A stretch of DNA of 63,740 nt from an uncultured virus (IMG/VR IMGVR_UViG_3300020183_000016) (Duplodnaviria > Heunggongvirae > Uroviricota > Caudoviricetes): positions 62,001 to 125,740 of IMG/VR virus record IMGVR_UViG_3300020183_000016; one strand, written 5' to 3'. Made by a program: the position numbers and the translations under genes. The notes below the pieces were generated by a model. The model made no database searches and was not told the origin of the DNA. It saw only the letters and a program-made list of their open reading frames with translations. This document shows, in pieces, positions 36,233 to 62,095 of the stretch (positions within the stretch are counted from its first letter, which is position 1; each line of letters opens with the position of its first letter).

Positions 36233-37645
36233 ATGGAAACACAATTGACTAATATTGAAAAAGAAAATGTAACGTTAACTGATAATGGTATGGTTACTAA
36301 TCCAACAACACTTAATAAGTGTGTTGATTTATTTTTCTCTATTGGATCAATGAGAGGAAAATCAAAAGATAAAGTAACTAAAATGTTTAGTGAAGCATTT
36401 TTAGAGAATCCTTTAATTTCCACAAAAATTCTTTTTTGGGTTAGAGACGTTAGAGGTGGTGCGGGTGAAAGACAAGTTTTTAGAGACATTATACAATATT
36501 TGTCTACCAATTCCCCACAAACATTGAAAAAAAATATTAACCTTATTCCTGAATTTGGTAGATGGGATGATATTTTAATCCTTTTAGGTACTGAATTAGA
36601 AAATGATATGTTTGATACAATCAAAACTGCGTTGACTAACGGTAATGGGTTATGTGCAAAATGGATGCCTAGGAAAGGTGAAGATGCGAATAGACTTAGA
36701 AAACTATTTAAATTGACACCTAAACAATATAGAAAAATGTTAGTTGACTTAACTAATGTTGTTGAAACTAAAATGTGTTCTAAGGATTGGGAATCTATTG
36801 ATTACTCTAAATTACCTTCTTTGGCATCTTCCAGATATCAAAAATCATTTAAAAGAAATGATACTGTTAGATATGAAGAATATAAAACCGCATTAATCGA
36901 AGGGACTGCTAAGGTAAACGCTGGAGCAGTGTATCCATACGATATTATTAAATCTATGAGATATGGTGGGGATCATGTTGTTAACAATAAACAATGGGAA
37001 TCACTACCTAATTTTATGGAAGGTTCTTCTGAAAGAATATTACCAGTGGTAGATGTTTCAGGCTCTATGAGTTGTGAAGTGGGTGGAAATCCAAACCTAA
37101 CTTGTATGGATGTGGCAGTATCATTGGGTATGTATATTTCAGAAAGAAGTGAAGGAAACTTTAAAGATGCATTTATTACATTCTCAGAAGATCCACAACT
37201 ACAATATTTAAAAGGTAGTTTAAATCAAAGATTAAAACAATTACTTAGTGCTGATTGGGGTATGAGTACTAATTTAGAAAAAGTATTTAGTTTAATACTT
37301 ACACAGGCTAAGAAAAATAACATATCTGAGGATATGATGCCAACTAAAATATTGATTTTATCGGATATGCAGTTTAATGCGGCTACATATAGGAGTAATA
37401 CCTCTCAAAATATGATTGAGAGTATGTATGAAGAGGCTGGTTATAAAAAACCTGATATTATTTATTGGAATTTAAATGCGAAAGGTGGTAACTTTCCAGT
37501 TGAGTTCGATAAAGAAGGTACGGCATTGGTATCAGGATTTAGTCCGTCAATTCTTAAATCCTTATTAGGTGGTAAGAATATGACACCAGAATCCATATTG
37601 ATGGATACTGTAAATGATGAAAGATATAGTTTAATAACTATATAA
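36233..37645 (+). CDS. DUF2828-family TROVE/Ro60-like protein with C-terminal vWA domain
   Basis: RDVRGGAGER, EFGRWDD, LCAKWMPR, VVDVSGSM (MIDAS), WGMSTN, ILSDMQF, IIYWNL, LVSGFSP. Confidence 0.85.
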   Translation: METQLTNIEKENVTLTDNGMVTNPTTLNKCVDLFFSIGSMRGKSKDKVTKMFSEAFLENPLISTKILFWVRDVRGGAGERQVFRDIIQYLSTNSPQTLKKNINLIPEFGRWDDILILLGTELENDMFDTIKTALTNGNGLCAKWMPRKGEDANRLRKLFKLTPKQYRKMLVDLTNVVETKMCSKDWESIDYSKLPSLASSRYQKSFKRNDTVRYEEYKTALIEGTAKVNAGAVYPYDIIKSMRYGGDHVVNNKQWESLPNFMEGSSERILPVVDVSGSMSCEVGGNPNLTCMDVAVSLGMYISERSEGNFKDAFITFSEDPQLQYLKGSLNQRLKQLLSADWGMSTNLEKVFSLILTQAKKNNISEDMMPTKILILSDMQFNAATYRSNTSQNMIESMYEEAGYKKPDIIYWNLNAKGGNFPVEFDKEGTALVSGFSPSILKSLLGGKNMTPESILMDTVNDERYSLITI

Positions 37646-44403: not shown

Positions 44404-44693
44404 TTTATTATAAATATTTGTTTTTTTGGAAAATAATATATATATTTGTAGATATAATTGGTGTAACAAATGAGTTTATCTAAAAAAGTTTATGAAAATA
44501 TTAAGTATGAGGAACAAAAAAATACTCACACTGAAAACGAATGGTTAGATAGAATATTATACACCAAAGATAAAATAAAAAAAAGTTCTTTGAAATTTGG
44601 GGATGGTTTTGGATTTGACAATCAAAGGTTGAGTTCGAAATGATGCAAGCCGAGTTAGATGGAAACTCGTAAATTACCTATCAAAATATAAAT

Positions 44694-44789
44694 GCAAACG
44701 CATACAACGTAGAGGATATCATGAGTATCCCAACTTCTATCACTCGCTCAGCGATGGTTGAAGAGATGGAATCAATCGAATTGGTTTAA
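44694..44789 (+). other. tmRNA tag reading frame ANAYNVEDIMSIPTSITRSAMVEEMESIELV*
   Basis: GCA resume codon after pk1-like region and AAATATAAAT; TAA at 44787-44789. Confidence 0.75.
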
Positions 44790-44980
44790 TCGGTGGGTCA
44801 CACTTACCTAGAAACAGAAAGGTGTAAAAATAGAGTTGATCGTTAATACTCTTTAAACAATTGATGAAACAGGGTTGTTGGATAACCATGTTATAAATAA
44901 AACCAAATATTTTGTTTGTTTAGAAAAATGAACTAAGCTTGTGAATGAATTTCTAATGTCGATTTGGTTGGACGAGGGTT

Positions 44981-45203
44981 TGAGTGCGGACCCACTTATT
45001 GGTGACAGTAAGTTAAAAATCGGATGAATTGCTGGAACGCTAAGTCTTTTTAAGATATGCCAATCAGCAGCCAAGCCTACAGAGTAGGAAGGTTCAGAGA
45101 CTATTGGGGATTATAGCGATATAATGTAATACCAACTAGAGCGTCCGACATCTTTAGTAGATGATGATATAGTCCAGACAATAATGAAAATTATTGATTA
45201 TAG
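44981..45203 (+). mobile_element. Group I intron (223 nt, no ORF) in the tmRNA T-loop
   Basis: P1 GGGUU/GACCC with U:G at the 5' splice site; P AATTGCTGGAA, Q AATCAGCAG, R TCAGAGACTA, S GATATAGTCC; terminal G at 45203. Confidence 0.92.
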
Positions 45204-53065: not shown

Positions 53066-53758
53066 ATGAAAAAGAAAATTACATTTATTAGTGATACCCA
53101 CACTAAACATTTACAGATAAAAGATTTTCTAACTGGTGGGGATATTCTAATTTGTAGTGGTGATATATCTAGTAGAGGTTATATTACTGAAATAGAAAAT
53201 TTTATTAGGTGGTATGATGAAATAAATAATTACGATACCAAAATATTTATTGCGGGTAATCACGATTTTGGTTTTCAAGATAATCACGATAATATTAAAG
53301 GGAAATTAACAGGTTATAAAACTGTTGAGTATCTTCAAGATGAAAGAATTGATCTTTGGGATCAAGAAGATCAACAATTAGTTATTTATGGTTCACCTTG
53401 GCAACCTGAGTTCCGTAGTTGGGCATTTAATCTACCTAGAGGTGAAAAAATTAAAGAGAAGTGGGATATGATTCCACGTGATACCGATATTTTAATTACA
53501 CACGGTCCACCATACGGTAAATTAGATTATGTGTATTATGATAATTTAAATGTTGGTTGTGAGGAACTATTAAAAGTGGTGGAAGAAATAAAACCTAAAA
53601 TACATGTGTTTGGGCATATTCACGAAGGGTATGGTTATGTATTCGATGGTAACACTCATTATATTAATGCGGCAGTATTAAATGGTAGATATGAATTTAG
53701 AAACAAACCAGTTAATGTTGAGTGGGACATGATAACCAATGAAATAGAATTTTTATGA
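53066..53758 (+). CDS. Calcineurin-like metallophosphoesterase
   Basis: ISDTH, SGD, AGNHD, LITHGPP, FGHIHE. Confidence 0.9.
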   Translation: MKKKITFISDTHTKHLQIKDFLTGGDILICSGDISSRGYITEIENFIRWYDEINNYDTKIFIAGNHDFGFQDNHDNIKGKLTGYKTVEYLQDERIDLWDQEDQQLVIYGSPWQPEFRSWAFNLPRGEKIKEKWDMIPRDTDILITHGPPYGKLDYVYYDNLNVGCEELLKVVEEIKPKIHVFGHIHEGYGYVFDGNTHYINAAVLNGRYEFRNKPVNVEWDMITNEIEFL

Positions 53759-54063
53759 AATCAATAAATCAAATATTCAAAACGAACAATTCACTTATGG
53801 AAGAACCAGAAGTAGTTGAATTAATTGATTATTGTAAAGATTTAGAAGATGAGGTTGTCGAGTATAAACAAAAAAATGATCAAACTATAATTTTAAAACA
53901 ACTTATTTCTGAAATTAATAAAAGTTGTTTTGAATTATTAGAAGATGATAAAAGGGCTGAAAGGTGGGAAGGTGATTTTGATAAGGTTGATTTTAAAGAA
54001 TCTATTATTAATTTAAGAGAGTATATAATAAAATATTGTTTAGATAATAAAATAAATTTATGA
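53755..54063 (+). CDS. Hypothetical protein, paralog of 25217..25531
   Basis: Shared PEV.ELIDY..LE motif. Confidence 0.7.
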   Translation: MKSINQIFKTNNSLMEEPEVVELIDYCKDLEDEVVEYKQKNDQTIILKQLISEINKSCFELLEDDKRAERWEGDFDKVDFKESIINLREYIIKYCLDNKINL

Positions 54064-54497
54064 ATAAGTATAGAATATATTTAGATGACATTAGGACACC
54101 TGTTAGTCCTAATAATGAATGGATTGATGGTTTTGAGGAATGGACAGTTGTACGTTCCTATGAAGAATTTGTCCAAAAAGTAAATTCATTAGGACTAAAG
54201 AATATTGAATTAATTTCATTGGATCACGATTTAGGTGATTCGGCAATGCAGGAATGGCATTATGGTGTAGTTAAAAACTATACGATTAATTACGATAACA
54301 TCACCGAAAAAACTGGATATGATTGTGCCAAATGGTTGGTTAATCAATGGATGGATGGTAAACCAGTTGTTAGGGTGGTAACTCATTCGGCAAACGCAAT
54401 TGGTAGTGCCAACATTATGGGTTACATAAATAATTACTTACACTTAAATAGATTACCACAAGATTGTGTAAGAGTACAAATAGAACATACAGTTTAA
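54060..54497 (+). CDS. Cyclic-phosphate-processing receiver-like domain protein
   Basis: IYLDDIRTP, ISLDHDLG, KTGYDCAKWL, THSAN. Confidence 0.8.
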   Translation: MNKYRIYLDDIRTPVSPNNEWIDGFEEWTVVRSYEEFVQKVNSLGLKNIELISLDHDLGDSAMQEWHYGVVKNYTINYDNITEKTGYDCAKWLVNQWMDGKPVVRVVTHSANAIGSANIMGYINNYLHLNRLPQDCVRVQIEHTV

Positions 54498-54498
54498 T

Positions 54499-55059
54499 AT
54501 GAAAGTAATATTTTTAGATCACGATGGAGTGATATGTTTATCCCAACAATGGGGTGGACGATATAAGAAAAAAGGTTATGATTCAAATACTGAAACTCCT
54601 TTAGATATCAGAATGGATAGTTTTGATGAAAAGGCGGTTAAAGTTCTTAATAATATTATTGAAGAAACTGGTTGTGAATTAGTTATTAGTTCTGATTGGA
54701 AAAGATGGGGTACATTGGAACAAATGAAGGAAATGTACGAAACAAGAGGTATTAAACAACCTATTGATTTAACCCCAATGATACAAAATTGTACTGCACA
54801 CAGTAACACATTTATATGGTCACCGAGATGGGATTCAGAACAAACTAGAGTTCTTGAAATTAATCAGTATCTACACGATCACCCCGAAATAACTCATTGG
54901 GTTGCCATTGATGATTTAGATTTAGGTAAGAATGGTGAAGGATGGAAAGATTGGGGGTTAGATAATTTTGTACTTTGTAAAAGACCGTATAATGAAGGAA
55001 TAAAACAATTAGGTTTAAAAGAAAAGATATTAAAATTTTTAAGTGATGAGTTACTATAG
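54499..55059 (+). CDS. HAD phosphatase of the Swiss-Army-knife RNA-repair type
   Basis: IFLDHDGV, VISSDW, EI..YL, WVAIDD. Confidence 0.8.
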   Translation: MKVIFLDHDGVICLSQQWGGRYKKKGYDSNTETPLDIRMDSFDEKAVKVLNNIIEETGCELVISSDWKRWGTLEQMKEMYETRGIKQPIDLTPMIQNCTAHSNTFIWSPRWDSEQTRVLEINQYLHDHPEITHWVAIDDLDLGKNGEGWKDWGLDNFVLCKRPYNEGIKQLGLKEKILKFLSDELL

Positions 55060-58708: not shown

Positions 58709-58791
58709 AAAATATTTGACAATTCGGTTTTTTATTTTTAACTTTGTAAAAGAAAATTAGTTCATTGACATATTGGTTATAAAGAATAAAA

Positions 58792-58870
58792 TGTTGTTCC
58801 CTTGAGAAAGGAATAGACCTTAACGAGAGTTAGGATGAAATAAAACAACACAGAGGACTTCTCATCCTCA
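58792..58870 (+). ncRNA. Kissing-loop RNA motif copy X1
   Basis: tgttgtt/aacaaca stem; loop TGAGAA complementary to loop TTCTCA of the gagga/tcctc hairpin; both ends repeated at 59223-59243 and 59641-59661. Confidence 0.55.
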
Positions 58871-58901
58871 AGTCAGGATAGATTTGTTTCTATCCTGACT
58901 A
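58871..58901 (+). ncRNA. tRNA minihelix-like element
   Basis: AGTCAGG-ATAGA-tttgtt-TCTAT-CCTGACT-A (7+5 bp); same acceptor stem as two tRNA-like RNAs. Confidence 0.55.
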
Positions 58902-58962
58902 CAATGAAGACTGTTACTAATTCATAGGACAAGACAAGTAGTAAGCGTAGAATTAGAATTTT

Positions 58963-59055
58963 AGTCAGGTGGCGGAATTGGTAGACGCTAGTTAACAGAC
59001 AGATAGATAAAAGGAATGGTTTACTATCATACAGGTTCGAATCCTGTCCTGACTA
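58963..59055 (+). tRNA. tRNA-like RNA without canonical anticodon arm
   Basis: AGTCAGG/CCTGACT acceptor; Leu-type D arm GCGGAATTGGTAGACGC; T arm ACAGG-TTCGAAT-CCTGT; no 5-bp/7-nt anticodon arm. Confidence 0.7.
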
Positions 59056-59065
59056 CTAATCCTAA

Positions 59066-59214
59066 TGCACTTAACTGACATAAGTCAGGCAGTTGTAACA
59101 ACAAGATAGACCAAAAACAGCAAACTCTTTGACTTAGAAAGGCGAGTTTAGGTAGACGTTTTGTAGTGATACAATTAAGATTAACTCTTAAGTGTTACAA
59201 CTGAGTGCAGAGGG
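59066..59214 (+). ncRNA. Structured RNA motif copy B (ORF-less)
   Basis: tgcact/agtgca and cagttgtaac/gttacaactg pairings; homologous to 45332-45655. Confidence 0.6.
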
Positions 59215-59289
59215 GTAACATGTGTTGTTGCATTGAGAAAGGAGAGTGTGGTCATAACAGTTATTTTAAGTGCAAATATATATAAAGAT

Positions 59290-59637
59290 ATGAAAAATAT
59301 AAAAACAAAAAAGGAATTAGAAACAGAAGCACTTTTGTTATATGGTGGTAATAATAAACAAAATCCACCATTTAATGTGGGTGATAAACTAAAACAAATA
59401 TGGAGAGTTGGTGATAATGACAACCTTATAAAAGACGGTAGGGGAATGGTGGAATTTGTTGGTATGAGAGGTAATATGATGTTATTGAAGACATTAAACG
59501 ATTATGCGGCACATTCGGAGGATACTATTAACCAAGATGTTGTTAAAATGTCTAAAAAAGCAGGATATAAACCTATAATTGGTGATGTTCTTCAATTACA
59601 TTATATGTATGCTGATAGATATGAGGTGGTCGGGTAA
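59290..59637 (+). CDS. Hypothetical protein nested between the halves of RNA motif X2
   Basis: 115 aa from ATG 59290; the TTG start at 59233 lies inside the RNA motif. Confidence 0.65.
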   Translation: MKNIKTKKELETEALLLYGGNNKQNPPFNVGDKLKQIWRVGDNDNLIKDGRGMVEFVGMRGNMMLLKTLNDYAAHSEDTINQDVVKMSKKAGYKPIIGDVLQLHYMYADRYEVVG

Positions 59638-59664
59638 AAAACAGAGGACTTCTCATCCTCATAA

Positions 59665-59747
59665 GCCTCGGTGGTGGAATTGGTAGTCACGCTCGGCTTA
59701 AGATCGAGTGTCCATTGGACGTGCGGGTTCAAGTCCCGCCTGAGGTA
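59665..59747 (+). tRNA. tRNA-Leu(UAA)
   Basis: GCCTCGG/CTGAGGT acceptor; CTCGG-CTTAAGA-TCGAG anticodon arm; long variable arm; GCGGG-TTCAAGT-CCCGC; no encoded CCA. Confidence 0.92.
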
Positions 59748-59748
59748 C

Positions 59749-59913
59749 AAAAGATGTTACAAACCGTAGAATGACAGACGTGGAGAGACGTGTCGAAAGG
59801 GTATACACTAAGGATAGGCGTTCAATCTTAATTGTATTGATATAAGACCCAACTCTCTAATGGTGTGTGAAGTCGAAAGACGGGATTCCTGATAAAGTCA
59901 TTTATCATCTTTT
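59749..59913 (+). ncRNA. Unknown ~165-nt structured RNA between tRNAs
   Basis: aaaagatg/catctttt and aatgac/gtcatt closing stems; gtc-gaaa-gac GNRA hairpin; GC-richer than coding DNA. Confidence 0.45.
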
Positions 59914-59917
59914 AATT

Positions 59918-59950
59918 GCGCCCGTAGATCAGTTGAATAGATCAACGGAC
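59918..59950 (+). pseudogene. 5' half of a tRNA (Arg-like), truncated at the anticodon loop
   Basis: GCGCCCG-TA-GATC-AGTTGAATA-GATC-A-ACGGA-C; no matching 3' half. Confidence 0.6.
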
Positions 59951-59952
59951 AT

Positions 59953-60024
59953 GGCTCCATAGTTAAATGGATATAACGAATCTCTTCTAAAGATTAGTTC
60001 CTAGTTCGATTCTAGGTGGGGCTA
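59953..60024 (+). tRNA. tRNA-Arg(UCU)
   Basis: GGCTCCA/TGGGGCT acceptor; AATCT-CTTCTAA-AGATT; CCTAG-TTCGATT-CTAGG; no encoded CCA. Confidence 0.9.
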
Positions 60025-60031
60025 CTAAAGT

Positions 60032-60109
60032 GGGTAAGAGCGTAATGAGGCACGGTGCCGAGTCCCGTAAAAAGGTTGTTCATTGTGGGTTCGAATCCCA
60101 CCTTACCCA
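60032..60109 (+). tRNA. tRNA-like RNA with unrecognisable anticodon arm
   Basis: GGGTAAG/CTTACCC acceptor; GTGGG-TTCGAAT-CCCAC T arm; middle region does not form a normal anticodon stem-loop. Confidence 0.65.
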
Positions 60110-60111
60110 TT

Positions 60112-60879
60112 TGACACATAAACTTAGGTACCCGTACAGCTATGAGATGGGCTAAGTTATATATTTTTTGAATTTCCATATACTTATAATAAAGTATTGG
60201 TTATGGACTATAAAAAAATATATGAATCGATTATCCATAGAGGTAAAAACAGAAAACTAAATACCTATAAGGAAAAACATCATATTATTCCGAAATGTAT
60301 GGGAGGTAGTGATGATGACACAAATTTAGTAGAATTAACTGCTAAAGAACATTTTATTTGTCATTTACTTTTGTGTGAAATATACCCTAATGAAAATACA
60401 CTTAAAAGTGCTAGATGGGCTATGACTTGTTTAAAAAGTAAAAATCATAATAGGAAGTATATTGTATCTTCTTCTCAATATGATAGAATAAAAAATGAAA
60501 TGGCATTGTTAAAAAAAGGTGTAAAACGTAGTGATGAGGTTAAAGAAAAAATATCGAACTTTCGTAAAGGTATAACACATTCAGAAGAAACTAAAAAAAA
60601 GATTTCAGATAAAATGAAAAATAGGGTTCAATCTGAAGAACACAAGTTAAATCAATCTTTATCCAAAAAAGGACAAATCCCTTGGAATAAGGGTATTCAT
60701 ATTTCTGAAGAAACTAAAATAAAAATATCTTTATCGAGAAAAAAAGGAATAAGTACGTAGATATGTCTGTGCCAATTATCTTTAAATAACTTAGGAAACG
60801 TACAGAAACCTAATGTAGCGTACCGCTTTTCCATATATGATTTCTCGGTGCTGGGAGTAGAATGCCTAAGAGTGTGTCA
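60112..60879 (+). ncRNA. Structured RNA enclosing an HNH homing-endonuclease ORF
   Basis: Nested pairings tgacacat/gtgtgtca, cttaggta/tgcctaag, cagc/gctg, and ctaagttat (60152-60160)/ataacttag (60786-60794) closing the ORF loop. Confidence 0.6.
60203..60760 (+). CDS. HNH homing endonuclease with NUMOD3 repeats
   Basis: EKHHIIPKCMGGSDD.TNLVELTAKEHFICHLLL; HSEETKKKIS, PWNKG..SEETK.KIS. Confidence 0.9.
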   Translation: MDYKKIYESIIHRGKNRKLNTYKEKHHIIPKCMGGSDDDTNLVELTAKEHFICHLLLCEIYPNENTLKSARWAMTCLKSKNHNRKYIVSSSQYDRIKNEMALLKKGVKRSDEVKEKISNFRKGITHSEETKKKISDKMKNRVQSEEHKLNQSLSKKGQIPWNKGIHISEETKIKISLSRKKGIST

Positions 60880-60883
60880 TTAT

Positions 60884-60971
60884 AGTCAGGTGGTGTATAT
60901 TGGTAACACCCTTCATTATCAGGTTTAAAAGAACTGGAAGGACGAAATGGGTTCGAATCCTGTCCTGACTA
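60884..60971 (+). tRNA. tRNA-like RNA with enlarged (22-nt) anticodon loop
   Basis: AGTCAGG/CCTGACT acceptor; CCTTC/GAAGG stem around 22 nt; ATGGG-TTCGAAT-CCTGT T arm. Confidence 0.7.
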
Positions 60972-61360: not shown

Positions 61361-62095
61361 ATGCCACAGATATATAAAGTAGGTGGTTGTGTTAGAGATG
61401 GTATGTTAGGTATTGAATCTAAGGATATCGACTTCACATTTGTTCTAGATAATATAGATAGAACGGTGGAAGAAGGATTCCAAATAATGACAGATTGGTT
61501 AACACATAAGGAGTTTACAATATTCCTATCTACACCAGAAATGTTTACAATTAGAGCTAAATTCCCTAAAGGTGATATGAATGAAGGATTGGTTGCGGAC
61601 TTTGTGTTGGCTAGAAAAGAAGTAGGGTATAAAGAAGGTACTAGACAACCTATTTTAGAATTAGGTACACTAGAAGATGATCTTATCAGAAGAGATTTCA
61701 CTCTTAATGCTATGGCAGTTGACTACGATGGTAATCTAATAGATTTATTTGGGGGTAAAGGACATTTAGAGGCAAGACTCCTAAAAACTCCTTTACCTGC
61801 CGAACAAACAATGTTGGATGATCCTCTCAGATTTTTAAGGGCGTTAAGATTTTCTATAACAAAGGGATTCTTCATTCATGAGTCAATCTTTAGATCGATG
61901 GAACAACCTGACATAATGGAAAAATTAGAGAAGGTAGTTTCTGCCGAAAGAATTAGAGAGGAAGTTTTAAAAATGATGAAACATGATACTGTCGCATCAT
62001 TAACTTTATTTGGTATGGTGGAAAAAAGAATACCTGGTTTTACCAAATTAATATTCAGTAAAGGATTATGGTTAAAACCTACCTTTGAATTATAA
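61361..62095 (+). CDS. tRNA nucleotidyltransferase (class II CCA-adding/poly(A) polymerase family), short form
   Basis: VGGCVRD..KDIDF, EDDLIRRDFTLNAMA, DDPLRFLRALRF, VSAERIREE. Confidence 0.9.
   Translation: MPQIYKVGGCVRDGMLGIESKDIDFTFVLDNIDRTVEEGFQIMTDWLTHKEFTIFLSTPEMFTIRAKFPKGDMNEGLVADFVLARKEVGYKEGTRQPILELGTLEDDLIRRDFTLNAMAVDYDGNLIDLFGGKGHLEARLLKTPLPAEQTMLDDPLRFLRALRFSITKGFFIHESIFRSMEQPDIMEKLEKVVSAERIREEVLKMMKHDTVASLTLFGMVEKRIPGFTKLIFSKGLWLKPTFEL

What the first reader, a model, noticed from the sequence alone, without database searches (positions are those of the whole stretch)
58871..60971. Three tRNA-like elements share acceptor AGTCAGG/CCTGACT-A but have no usable anticodon
Seen: the same acceptor stem and discriminator at 58871-58901 (12-bp minihelix), 58963-59055 (good D/T arms, aberrant anticodon region) and 60884-60971 (22-nt anticodon loop). 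The two larger ones share the 3' sequence GGTTCGAATCCTGTCCTGACTACT while their middles are unrelated. A conserved top half with a free anticodon half fits selection for RNase P/RNase Z/CCA recognition rather than decoding. Inference: punctuation signals that excise the neighbouring ncRNAs, or decoys against host anticodon nucleases or tRNA sensors.
Basis: partly seen in the sequence, partly recalled or inferred. Interest (0 to 1): 0.75.

Follow-up and report, generated by a model that had tools for sequence, protein, structure and literature searches.

The report
Phage tRNA-shaped scaffolds with swappable inserts
The three look-alikes are real members of a very large, apparently undescribed family of phage RNAs that keep the top half of a leucine tRNA almost letter for letter. 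The codon-reading part is replaced by an ever-changing insert, so they most likely serve as cut-marks and carriers for small RNAs, not as tRNAs.

Summary
Observation confirmed. All three elements sit at the stated coordinates and none has a usable anticodon.

**What they are.** Members share a near-invariant acceptor stem AGTCAGG/CCTGACT, A73-C74, U-1, a tRNA-Leu-type D arm and a T arm. The anticodon and variable arms are replaced by hypervariable inserts; elements are 48-191 nt long.

**Fit to the family.** A covariance model built from 33 foreign members scores the two large window copies 78.0 and 55.4 bits. The 31-nt minihelix is an insert-less minimal form with relatives elsewhere.

**Readings rejected.** Decay, intron-bearing tRNAs, attP sites and mimicry of a host tRNA were each tested and rejected.

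**Evidence on function.**
- The flank grammar (U-1, N73-C74, no encoded CCA) matches the phages' real tRNAs.
- About 30% of copies sit within 25 nt of an adjacent ORF.
- Close relatives keep slot and scaffold but swap the insert.
- One insert rides on two scaffold versions whose stems covary.

**Best reading (0.6, inferred).** Host tRNA-processing enzymes cut the elements out. This punctuates the transcripts and releases stable tRNA-shaped RNAs that display the insert.

No RNA data exist. This scan noted the family before, on other DNA.

The parts
58871..58901 (+). Minihelix: family acceptor stem plus a 5-bp extension, 6-nt loop and A73 (C74 at 58902). An insert-less minimal member.
   Evidence: Fold -19.5 kcal/mol, z -7.2. 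Model R1 scores it 17.7 bits, E 0.034. Related copies with wobble and one compensatory change lie in L170, L196 and in contigs of runs X21/X22.
58963..59055 (+). tRNA-shaped scaffold RNA 1: acceptor, tRNA-Leu-type D arm, 41-nt insert, T arm, A73 (C74 at 59056, U at -1).
   Evidence: Model R1, built from other phages' copies, scores it 78.0 bits, E 2e-17. Rfam tRNA 40.1 bits. The anticodon arm is aberrant.
60884..60971 (+). tRNA-shaped scaffold RNA 2: same acceptor and T loop, a different D arm, and a 5-bp stem closing 22 nt (C74 at 60972, U at -1).
   Evidence: R1 55.4 bits, E 1e-11. Rfam tRNA 31.9 bits. Relatives L284, L285 and L289 hold other inserts of 92, 157 and 99 nt in the same slot.
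58845..58870 (+). Conserved 26-nt motif (5-bp hairpin with a 7-nt loop at 58853-58869) abutting the minihelix. Its 20-nt core is repeated at 59642-59661 before tRNA-Leu.
   Evidence: The core is exact in 106 IMG/VR loci. 43 of 77 unique instances are followed, 3-6 nt later, by a family 5' end.
59642..59661 (+). Second copy of the motif core, 3 nt before tRNA-Leu(UAA).
59665..59748 (+). Bona fide tRNA-Leu(UAA) of the same cluster.
   Evidence: ARAGORN. Rfam 50.1 bits.
59953..60025 (+). Bona fide tRNA-Arg(UCU).
   Evidence: ARAGORN. Rfam 62.5 bits.
60032..60109 (+). Fourth tRNA look-alike with another acceptor, a good T arm and no normal D or anticodon arms.
   Evidence: ARAGORN finds it only at its low threshold. 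R1 28.0 bits. Its 3' end is not widespread: 3 loci, one of them the same phage.
59056..59232 (+). Structured non-coding RNA directly behind scaffold RNA 1.
   Evidence: MFE -49.5 kcal/mol, z -3.17, 1 of 200 shuffles as good. No Rfam family up to E 10.
58765..58792 (+). Best sigma-70-like promoter match at the head of the RNA cluster.
   Evidence: 11 of 12 hexamer letters. The number of such sites in the region is no more than chance (15 found, 14.8 expected).
61361..62095 (+). CCA-adding-enzyme-like gene 390 nt behind scaffold RNA 2.
   Evidence: Pfam PolyA_pol head domain, 68.8 bits. Present in only 2 of 26 family-bearing records.
60197..60760 (+). Homing-endonuclease gene (NUMOD3) inserted into a conserved non-coding RNA that ends at scaffold RNA 2.
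   Evidence: Pfam. Contigs in two runs skip 60158-60833 and 60163-60840. Relatives align across the gap.

Best explanation
The three elements are non-decoding, tRNA-Leu-derived 'tRNA-shaped scaffold' RNAs of a large phage family.

**Anatomy (shown).** Members keep the acceptor stem, A73-C74, the D/T elbow and the T arm. The anticodon and variable arms are replaced by an insert that differs from copy to copy.

**Mechanism (inferred).**
- They are transcribed within RNA and gene clusters.
- The host enzymes that mature the phage's real tRNAs recognise them: RNase P at the 5' side, 3' trimming, and completion of CCA from the encoded C74.
- Each element therefore does two things at once. It cuts the long transcript at fixed points, giving neighbouring non-coding RNAs and mRNAs defined ends. 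It is also released as a stable, L-shaped small RNA that displays its insert.
- The 31-nt minihelix is the version reduced to the cut-mark alone.
- What the inserts bind is unknown.
For: **Family and scaffold.**
There are 1-11 copies in each of 25 of 25 long records, which span 52-271 kb.
- I collected 230 unique copies. U8 is kept in 216, U48 in 187, a D-loop GG in 204 and the T loop in 199 of 230.
- Acceptor pairs are 97-99% paired. Variants are wobble or double changes.
- A second scaffold version carrying the same insert shows 5 compensated acceptor and T-stem pairs.
- Model R1 scores the window copies 78.0 and 55.4 bits. The next non-tRNA hit in the window scores 17.3.

**Same maturation grammar as real tRNAs.**
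- U-1 occurs in 123 of 151 family copies and in 121 of 177 real tRNAs.
- C74 occurs in 147 of 151 family copies and in 164 of 177 real tRNAs.
- CCA is encoded in 0 of 177 real tRNAs.

**Punctuation.**
- An ORF start lies within 25 nt downstream in 46 of 163 copies (mode 15-16 nt), against 5 of 183 random positions.
- The previous ORF's stop lies within 25 nt upstream in 51 of 172 copies.
- Structured RNAs abut both large window copies.

**Insert as cargo.**
- 23 insert clusters give 255 predicted pairs: 12 compensatory, 14 one-sided and 6 broken. With the partner shifted by one, only 1 is compensatory.
- The orthologous slot before the CCA-enzyme gene keeps its flank and scaffold but holds four unrelated inserts.
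Against: **No RNA evidence.** No ends, CCA addition or abundance are known. No listed run is on record as RNA.

**Weak signal in the inserts.**
- The window's own inserts fold weakly (z -1.3 and -0.3).
- Across the family, inserts are only slightly more stable than flank controls (mean z -0.61 against -0.24).
- 165 of 221 inserts are singletons, so conservation is untested for most.
- The compensatory counts come from structures predicted on 2-5 sequences each. That method leans towards finding pairs.
- Stems might be kept only so that the scaffold folds.

**Other points.**
- RNase P does not need a fixed acceptor sequence, so the near-invariance of the acceptor is not explained.
- Only 2 of 26 family-bearing records carry a CCA-enzyme gene.
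Confidence: 0.6

Rival explanations
1. Pure punctuation. The elements are only RNase P / 3'-end cut-marks, as with mitochondrial tRNA punctuation or the mascRNA at the MALAT1 3' end. The insert is a stuffer with no function of its own.
For: - Insert-less or internally deleted forms exist: the window minihelix, L170, L196, and 29-30-nt forms in L164, L206 and L225.
- Many copies are wedged tightly between ORFs.
- The minihelix, tRNA-Leu and full copies are interchangeable behind the 26-nt motif.
- Insert folding signal is weak.
Against: - Inserts of up to about 120 nt are kept in size-limited phage genomes.
- Insert types recur in unrelated contigs with compensated stems and, in one pair, a conserved loop.
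- One insert is kept on two scaffold versions and in two genomic slots.
Confidence: 0.2
2. Decoys or sponges for host defences that bind or cut tRNAs outside the anticodon, for example nucleases that cut the variable arm of long-arm tRNAs, or toxins that act on the acceptor end. The scaffold gives recognition, and the fast-changing insert reflects an arms race.
For: [quoted passage not shown]
- The window phage carries RNA-repair-type genes nearby: cREC, SAK-type HAD, a metallophosphoesterase and a CCA enzyme.
- Genomes carry several copies, and the insert turns over between close relatives.
Against: - No host tRNA with this acceptor was found. In 301 genomes of the class of one host-like MAG there were 14 matches against 21 reversed-pattern controls, none tRNA-like. 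All 20 MAG matches are family copies.
- There is no anticodon loop to offer to anticodon nucleases.
- No defence partner is identified.
Confidence: 0.12
3. Leucine-accepting, non-decoding RNAs. LeuRS charges the scaffold, and the Leu-RNA or the titration of LeuRS is the point.
For: - The conserved parts equal the E. coli leucine identity set: A73, A15-U48, G18G19, A20a and the D/T tertiary pairs. tRNA-Leu lacking the anticodon and variable arms is still charged (PMC9976931, section 'Leucine identity' read).
- In the family, A73 is kept in 143 of 151 copies, U48 in 187 of 230, and a Leu-type D arm in 147 of 230.
Against: - 83 of 230 copies lack the Leu-type D arm. These include the window's 60884 copy, which has neither A15 nor U48. 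The minihelix has no elbow at all.
- The same nucleotides are needed simply to form the elbow.
- No charging test was done.
Confidence: 0.06
4. Decaying pseudo-tRNAs, or tRNAs that regain an anticodon after removal of a small intron.
For: - A true tRNA remnant exists in the cluster at 59920-59952.
- With introns allowed, ARAGORN reads 60884-60971 as Ile(UAU) with a 15-nt insert.
- One family copy looks like a good tRNA-Lys(UUU), L049:4491-4561.
Against: - The scaffold is kept letter for letter in hundreds of phages while the middles differ.
- With introns allowed, 123 of 230 copies are 'rescued'. The 92 called 'introns' sit at positions 29-40, and the calls give more than 40 different anticodons, many of them rare A34 types.
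- Relatives keep intact scaffolds.
Confidence: 0.02

Closest known systems
Phage T4 small stable RNAs RNAC (species 1) and RNAD in the tRNA gene cluster
   Same: - They are encoded among phage tRNA genes next to a homing-endonuclease gene.
- The 3' 93 nt of RNAC pair into an acceptor-like stem with a standard T arm and no anticodon arm.
- Their function is still unknown (PMC3014915 and PMC9697503, passages read).
   Different: - There is no sequence likeness to the family.
- RNAC fails the Rfam tRNA models (17.5 bits, not significant), whereas family copies score 31-50 bits.
- T4 has single copies, not a scaffold reused with many inserts.
mascRNA at the MALAT1 / MEN-beta 3' end; mitochondrial tRNA punctuation and plant t-elements
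   Same: A tRNA look-alike without decoding function lets RNase P and 3' tRNA enzymes set the ends of neighbouring RNAs. This is recalled; the titles and abstracts of PMC8457004 and PMC1920247 were seen in listings.
   Different: - Those examples are eukaryotic or organellar.
- They have no variable insert.
- The Rfam mascRNA model does not match the three elements.
Engineered 'tRNA scaffold' for expressing recombinant RNA in E. coli
   Same: The anticodon arm of a tRNA is replaced by an RNA of interest, so that the chimera is processed and stabilised like a tRNA. This is recalled; PMC3753655 was seen in a listing only.
   Different: It is man-made. Here the same design appears as a natural, widespread family.
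Murine gammaherpesvirus 68 tRNA-miRNA-encoded RNAs (TMERs)
   Same: A viral tRNA-like module is linked to variable hairpin cargo (recalled; PMC4337559 abstract seen in a listing).
   Different: - The cargo follows the tRNA-like part instead of sitting inside it.
- It uses the eukaryotic Pol III and miRNA pathway.
Bacterial Y RNA YrlA (partner of Ro60)
   Same: It has a tRNA-like D/T elbow module on a non-coding RNA. A Ro60-like protein is possibly present in this phage: DUF2828+DUF7788, with a weak vWA_Ro60 hit at E 0.005, below the cut-off. PMC7824862 notes TROVE proteins with a tRNA-like partner in jumbo phages.
   Different: - In YrlA the RNA ends form the Ro-binding stem and the 'acceptor' is closed (recalled). 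Here the ends form the acceptor.
- The protein occurs in only 3 of 26 family-bearing records.

Membership tests
Decoding tRNA (Rfam RF00005 / ARAGORN) | 7-bp acceptor stem, discriminator, T arm and D arm | tested here: met
   Met for 58963-59055 and 60884-60971. The minihelix has only the acceptor stem.
Decoding tRNA (Rfam RF00005 / ARAGORN) | 5-bp anticodon stem closing a 7-nt loop with U33 and a purine at 37 | tested here: not met
   In 58963-59055 the stem has a G.A mismatch and the loop has A33. In 60884-60971 the loop is 22 nt. The minihelix has none.
Decoding tRNA (Rfam RF00005 / ARAGORN) | Score at or above the Rfam gathering threshold of 29 bits | tested here: met
   40.1 and 31.9 bits. 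The score comes from the top half. The minihelix has no hit.
Intron-bearing tRNA | An insert at a fixed site (37/38) whose removal leaves a normal anticodon arm with a consistent identity | tested here: not met
   In the window copy the insert is 15 nt at 38/39. In the family, 92 'introns' sit at positions 29-40, and the calls give more than 40 anticodons. No intron family was found in Rfam on 20 loci.
Phage tRNA-shaped scaffold family (defined here, model R1) | Acceptor AGTCAGG/CCTGACT with A73-C74, a T arm, usually a Leu-type D arm, and a variable insert in place of the anticodon and variable arms | tested here: met
   R1 was built from 33 copies of other phages. It scores 78.0 and 55.4 bits for the two large copies and 17.7 bits (E 0.034) for the minihelix.
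T4 RNAC-type stable RNA | Sequence or model-level homology to T4 RNAC | tested here: not met
   No T4-family match to the elements; only the endonuclease gene matched. The architecture alone is alike.
T4 RNAC-type stable RNA | Processed from the tRNA cluster transcript, with CCA added | not testable with these tools
   No RNA reads were available.
YrlA / Y RNA | The 5' and 3' ends form the Ro60-binding stem, and a Ro60 gene co-occurs | tested here: not met
   The ends form the acceptor stem. A DUF2828 protein occurs in 3 of 26 records.
tmRNA | tRNA-like domain plus a tag reading frame; Rfam RF00023 | tested here: not met
   The tmRNA model matches 44608-44996 only. At these elements there is only a 17-nt fragment hit of 14.3 bits.
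LeuRS substrate (E. coli-type leucine identity) | A73, A15-U48, G18G19, A20a and an intact D/T elbow | tested here: inconclusive
   All are present in 58963-59055. The 60884 copy lacks A15 and U48, and the minihelix lacks the elbow. Charging was not tested.
Phage attP copy of a host tRNA 3' end | An identical 3' part of a host tRNA gene | tested here: not met
   All 20 matches in genome contigs are family copies, and none overlaps an ARAGORN tRNA call. No such tRNA was found in 301 genomes.

The most novel reading that the evidence does not exclude
Phages of lake bacteria run a natural 'tRNA scaffold' display system. One conserved, horizontally shared tRNA-Leu-derived chassis is matured by host tRNA enzymes and is possibly even leucylated. 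It carries a huge, fast-turning library of small RNA inserts. These inserts act on host or rival factors such as defence nucleases, sensors or RNA-binding proteins, and may be made at the head of RNA clusters behind a dedicated 26-nt motif. The inserts would then be RNA counterparts of anti-defence accessory genes.
Probability: 0.3. Interest if true: 0.9.

Novelty: new variant of a known kind. Interest (0 to 1): 0.8.

Why it matters
**A function for an old puzzle.** tRNA look-alikes in phage tRNA clusters have been known since T4's RNAC and RNAD, but no function has been assigned to them. This family offers hundreds of natural variants built on one fixed chassis. That makes the question testable: the ends can be mapped, the cuts reproduced with RNase P, charging tried with LeuRS, and partners fished with insert-specific baits.

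**Annotation.** The Rfam tRNA model scores these elements above its threshold. They will therefore inflate phage tRNA counts and codon-usage arguments unless they are recognised for what they are.

**A possible tool and a new gene class.** If the inserts are functional cargo, the family is a ready-made, host-processed RNA display scaffold. It would also be a new class of phage accessory 'genes' made of RNA.

Tried and rejected
- **Host tRNA or attP copy: rejected**.
- **Intron rescue: rejected**.
- **Decay: rejected**.
- **Antisense targets.** The longest perfect complements of the two window inserts and the minihelix loop in the 125.7-kb record are 10-11 nt, within the range of 200 shuffles. 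The record is only about 39% of the genome, and no host genome is known.
- **Obligatory phage-encoded partner.** PolyA_pol occurs in 2 of 26 records and DUF2828 in 3 of 26.
- **Known RNA family in the inserts or nearby.** All 140 Rfam gathering-level hits on 20 loci (120,532 bases) are tRNA.
- **Shared insert motif.** The commonest 8-mers occur in at most 6 inserts. 10 of 204 inserts hold an extra T-arm-like hairpin, against 1.6 expected.
- **Second scaffold family from the 60032-60109 element.** Its 3' 22-mer occurs in only 3 loci, one of them the same phage.
- **Minihelix scan of IMG/VR.** It returned 119 stretches, mostly chance inverted repeats. Only a handful are true relatives or deletion forms.
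- **RNA evidence.**
  - No RNA holder is listed. 23 lake-water DNA runs hold the stretch.
  - One run, guessed to be RNA, holds 9% of the words.
  - Laid as contigs, that run showed many family copies with other inserts (summed depth 857 in bin 59024-59104, against 8.5-86 in three DNA runs). It cannot show transcription or ends.
- **Cultured phages.** No full-length match in 50,697 GenBank records. The nearest matches are ordinary tRNAs such as tRNA-Gln of Enterococcus phage EFDG1.
- **Literature.**
  - Searches found no description of the family.
  - PMC10690425 reports 10,006 candidate phage RNAs, including 'tRNA-like' ones. Passages were read.
  - The family's 3' motif was absent from 6 searchable supplement files. 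Three files could not be searched, so the family may be among those candidates.
Full report
**Observation**

- **58871-58901.** A 12-bp hairpin with a 6-nt loop and an unpaired A. MFE -19.5 kcal/mol, z -7.2, 0 of 200 shuffles fold as well.
- **58963-59055.** It folds with acceptor, D and T arms. The Rfam tRNA model gives 40.1 bits but leaves 30 nt of the middle unaligned. ARAGORN's 'tRNA-Leu(CAG)' call rests on a stem with a G.A mismatch and a loop with A where U33 should be.
- **60884-60971.** It scores 31.9 bits, and ARAGORN's default run does not call it. A 5-bp stem closes 22 nt.
- **Chance.** The shared 3' 22-mer occurs twice in the window and in none of 100 shuffles. In the whole 125,740-base virus record (about 39% complete by the tool's figure) the two acceptor words pair up only at these three places, and in none of 30 shuffled genomes.

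**A large family**

- It is also exact in 20 stretches of metagenome-assembled genomes, 11 of whose 18 contigs are labelled Bacteroidota.
- No cultured phage among 50,697 GenBank records has a full-length match. The nearest hits are ordinary tRNAs such as tRNA-Gln of Enterococcus phage EFDG1.
- 25 of 25 long records (52-271 kb, 7 of them at least 90% complete) hold 1-11 copies at up to 2 mismatches, mostly clustered and co-oriented.
- I collected 230 unique copies, 48-191 nt long with a median of 101.
- A covariance model built from 33 copies of other phages scores the window's two large elements 78.0 and 55.4 bits and the minihelix 17.7 bits (E 0.034). It also scores tRNA-Leu 30.8, the 60032-60109 look-alike 28.0 and tRNA-Arg 19.7. 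Nothing else in the window exceeds 17.3.

**What is conserved**

I anchored 151 copies on the D-arm and T-arm cores only, so the acceptor was not used for selection.

- The 5' acceptor word is identical in 134 and the 3' word in 139.
- The seven acceptor pairs are 97-99% paired. Departures are mostly G.U or double changes.
- A73 is kept in 143, C74 in 147, and U at -1 in 123.
- Across all 230 copies, U8 is kept in 216, U48 in 187, a D-loop GG in 204, and the T loop in 199. A tRNA-Leu-type D arm is present in 147.
- The stems are real helices. One approximately 105-nt insert occurs on the usual scaffold (L285, L329) and on a second scaffold version (L284, L289, L290). The acceptor and T stems of that second version differ at 5 pairs, all compensated, and A73-C74 is kept.

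**What they are not**

- **Not decoding tRNAs.** ARAGORN of 230, spread over 12 labels (11 amino-acid identities plus 'undetermined').
- **Not intron-bearing tRNAs.** With introns allowed ARAGORN of 230. The 92 called 'introns' sit anywhere from position 29 to 40, and the calls give more than 40 different anticodons.
- **Not decaying pseudogenes.** The scaffold is held nearly letter for letter.
- **Not a copy or mimic of a host tRNA.** None of the 20 MAG matches overlaps a tRNA call. A search for the acceptor pair at tRNA length in 301 genomes of the class of one such MAG gave 14 matches against 21 for the reversed control pattern, none of them tRNA-like.

**Processing grammar and position**

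- The 177 bona fide tRNAs in the same loci show the same flanks: U-1 in 121, N73-C74 in 164, and CCA encoded in 0. The look-alikes therefore probably share the real tRNAs' maturation route (inference).
- 46 of 163 copies have an ATG-ORF of at least 40 aa starting within 25 nt downstream (mode 15-16 nt), against 5 of 183 random positions.
- In 51 of 172 copies the previous ORF ends within 25 nt upstream.
- A 26-nt motif (58845-58870, a 5-bp hairpin with a 7-nt loop) abuts the minihelix. Its core recurs 3 nt before tRNA-Leu.
- The motif core is exact in 106 IMG/VR loci. 43 of 77 unique instances are followed 3-6 nt later by a family 5' end, and others by tRNAs or another RNA.
- Only 2 of 227 family copies carry the motif, so it marks about one place per cluster.
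- Contigs of related phages show the same motif followed directly by scaffold RNA 1. In another arrangement the ORF and motif are followed by a minihelix variant and then the RNA that here follows scaffold RNA 1. The modules are interchangeable.

**The insert**

- Of 221 inserts, 165 are singletons and 56 fall into 23 clusters.
- In those clusters, 255 predicted insert pairs split into 223 invariant, 12 compensatory, 14 one-sided and 6 broken. With the partner shifted by one, 1 is compensatory and 159 are broken. The structures were predicted on the same small alignments, which favours pairs.
- Inserts are only slightly more stable than flank controls (mean z -0.61 against -0.24, n = 187 each, p = 2e-5).
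- The window's own inserts fold weakly.
- The slot before the CCA-enzyme gene is telling. In relatives whose enzyme is 90, 89 and 76% identical, about 100 nt of upstream flank and the scaffold align, but the inserts (88, 92, 157 and 99 nt) are unrelated.
- No insert matches an Rfam family, and no antisense target exceeds chance.

**Layout in the window**

The cluster runs in this order:

1. Promoter-like site, 58765-58792.
2. A structured leader ending in the motif.
3. The minihelix.
4. Scaffold RNA 1.
5. A 177-nt structured RNA (z -3.17).
6. A small ORF.
7. The motif core.
8. tRNA-Leu.
9. A tRNA remnant.
10. tRNA-Arg.
11. A fourth look-alike.
12. A conserved RNA split by a homing-endonuclease gene.
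13. Scaffold RNA 2.
14. Two ORFs, the second a CCA-adding-enzyme-like gene.

Upstream, at 53-55 kb, lie RNA-repair-type genes.

**Mechanism**

- **Shown.** The family exists, its scaffold and helices are conserved, it has no anticodon, its flanks match real tRNAs, many copies abut ORFs and RNAs, and inserts are swapped and in part conserved.
- **Inferred.** RNase P and 3' tRNA enzymes cut the elements out. This punctuates the transcript and releases a stable insert-bearing RNA. The minihelix is the bare cut-mark. I put this at 0.6.
- **Unexplained.** The near-invariance of the acceptor sequence is not accounted for by any of these.

**Known relatives and novelty**

- The closest characterised case is T4 RNAC/RNAD. 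They are stable RNAs in the tRNA cluster with an acceptor-like stem and a T arm, and their function is unknown.
- By way of working, the family resembles mascRNA-type or mitochondrial punctuation and the engineered tRNA scaffold.
- Seven literature searches found no description of the family. It may be hidden among the 10,006 candidates of PMC10690425, three of whose supplement files I could not search.
- Earlier notes of this scan describe the same kind of element on other DNA.

**Limits**

- No RNA reads were available.
- The collection scans were capped.
- The host is unknown.
- E-values of model R1 are rough.

Noticed in passing
window 58845-58870 and 59642-59661; loci L322-L427: A 26-nt motif (5-bp hairpin whose 7-nt loop resembles an Arg-UCU anticodon loop) sits 0-6 nt before tRNAs and tRNA look-alikes. 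Its core is exact in 106 IMG/VR loci, at about one per cluster. It could be a promoter or an RNA signal. On the minus strand it reads as terminator-like.
   Followed up: partly
window 60113-60165 and 60786-60883, around the ORF 60197-60760: A NUMOD3 homing-endonuclease gene splits a conserved non-coding RNA that ends at scaffold RNA 2. Contigs of related phages skip about 674 nt here, and relatives align across the gap. The same RNA type follows the 26-nt motif in about 8 other loci.
   Followed up: partly
window 59920-59952: This is the 5' half of an older tRNA-Arg(UCU) gene, which is intact in L284 and L289. It is cut off by the present, different tRNA-Arg(UCU) gene, which L285 also has. The tRNA gene was replaced by recombination.
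   Followed up: partly
all tRNA genes in the fetched loci: The phages' real tRNA genes encode N73-C74 in 164 of 177 cases and a full CCA in none. This points to a 3' maturation route that completes CA onto C74.
   Followed up: no
window 44608-45196: The Rfam tmRNA model (61.6 bits, 44608-44996) overlaps a group I intron (100.3 bits, 44970-45196). This looks like a phage tmRNA gene interrupted by an intron near its 3' end. ARAGORN did not call it.
   Followed up: no
window 53066-55056 and 36233-37642: An RNA-repair-type gene set is present: a metallophosphoesterase, a cyclic-phosphate-processing receiver domain and a SAK-type HAD phosphatase. There is also a DUF2828+DUF7788 protein with a weak Ro60-type vWA hit.
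   Followed up: partly
window 59056-59232: A 177-nt strongly folded RNA (z -3.17) lies behind scaffold RNA 1. I did not test that reading.
   Followed up: partly
L049:4491-4561: One copy with the family acceptor and T arm has a normal anticodon arm, tRNA-Lys(UUU), and scores 66.3 bits on the Rfam tRNA model. The chassis can therefore also carry a working tRNA.
   Followed up: no
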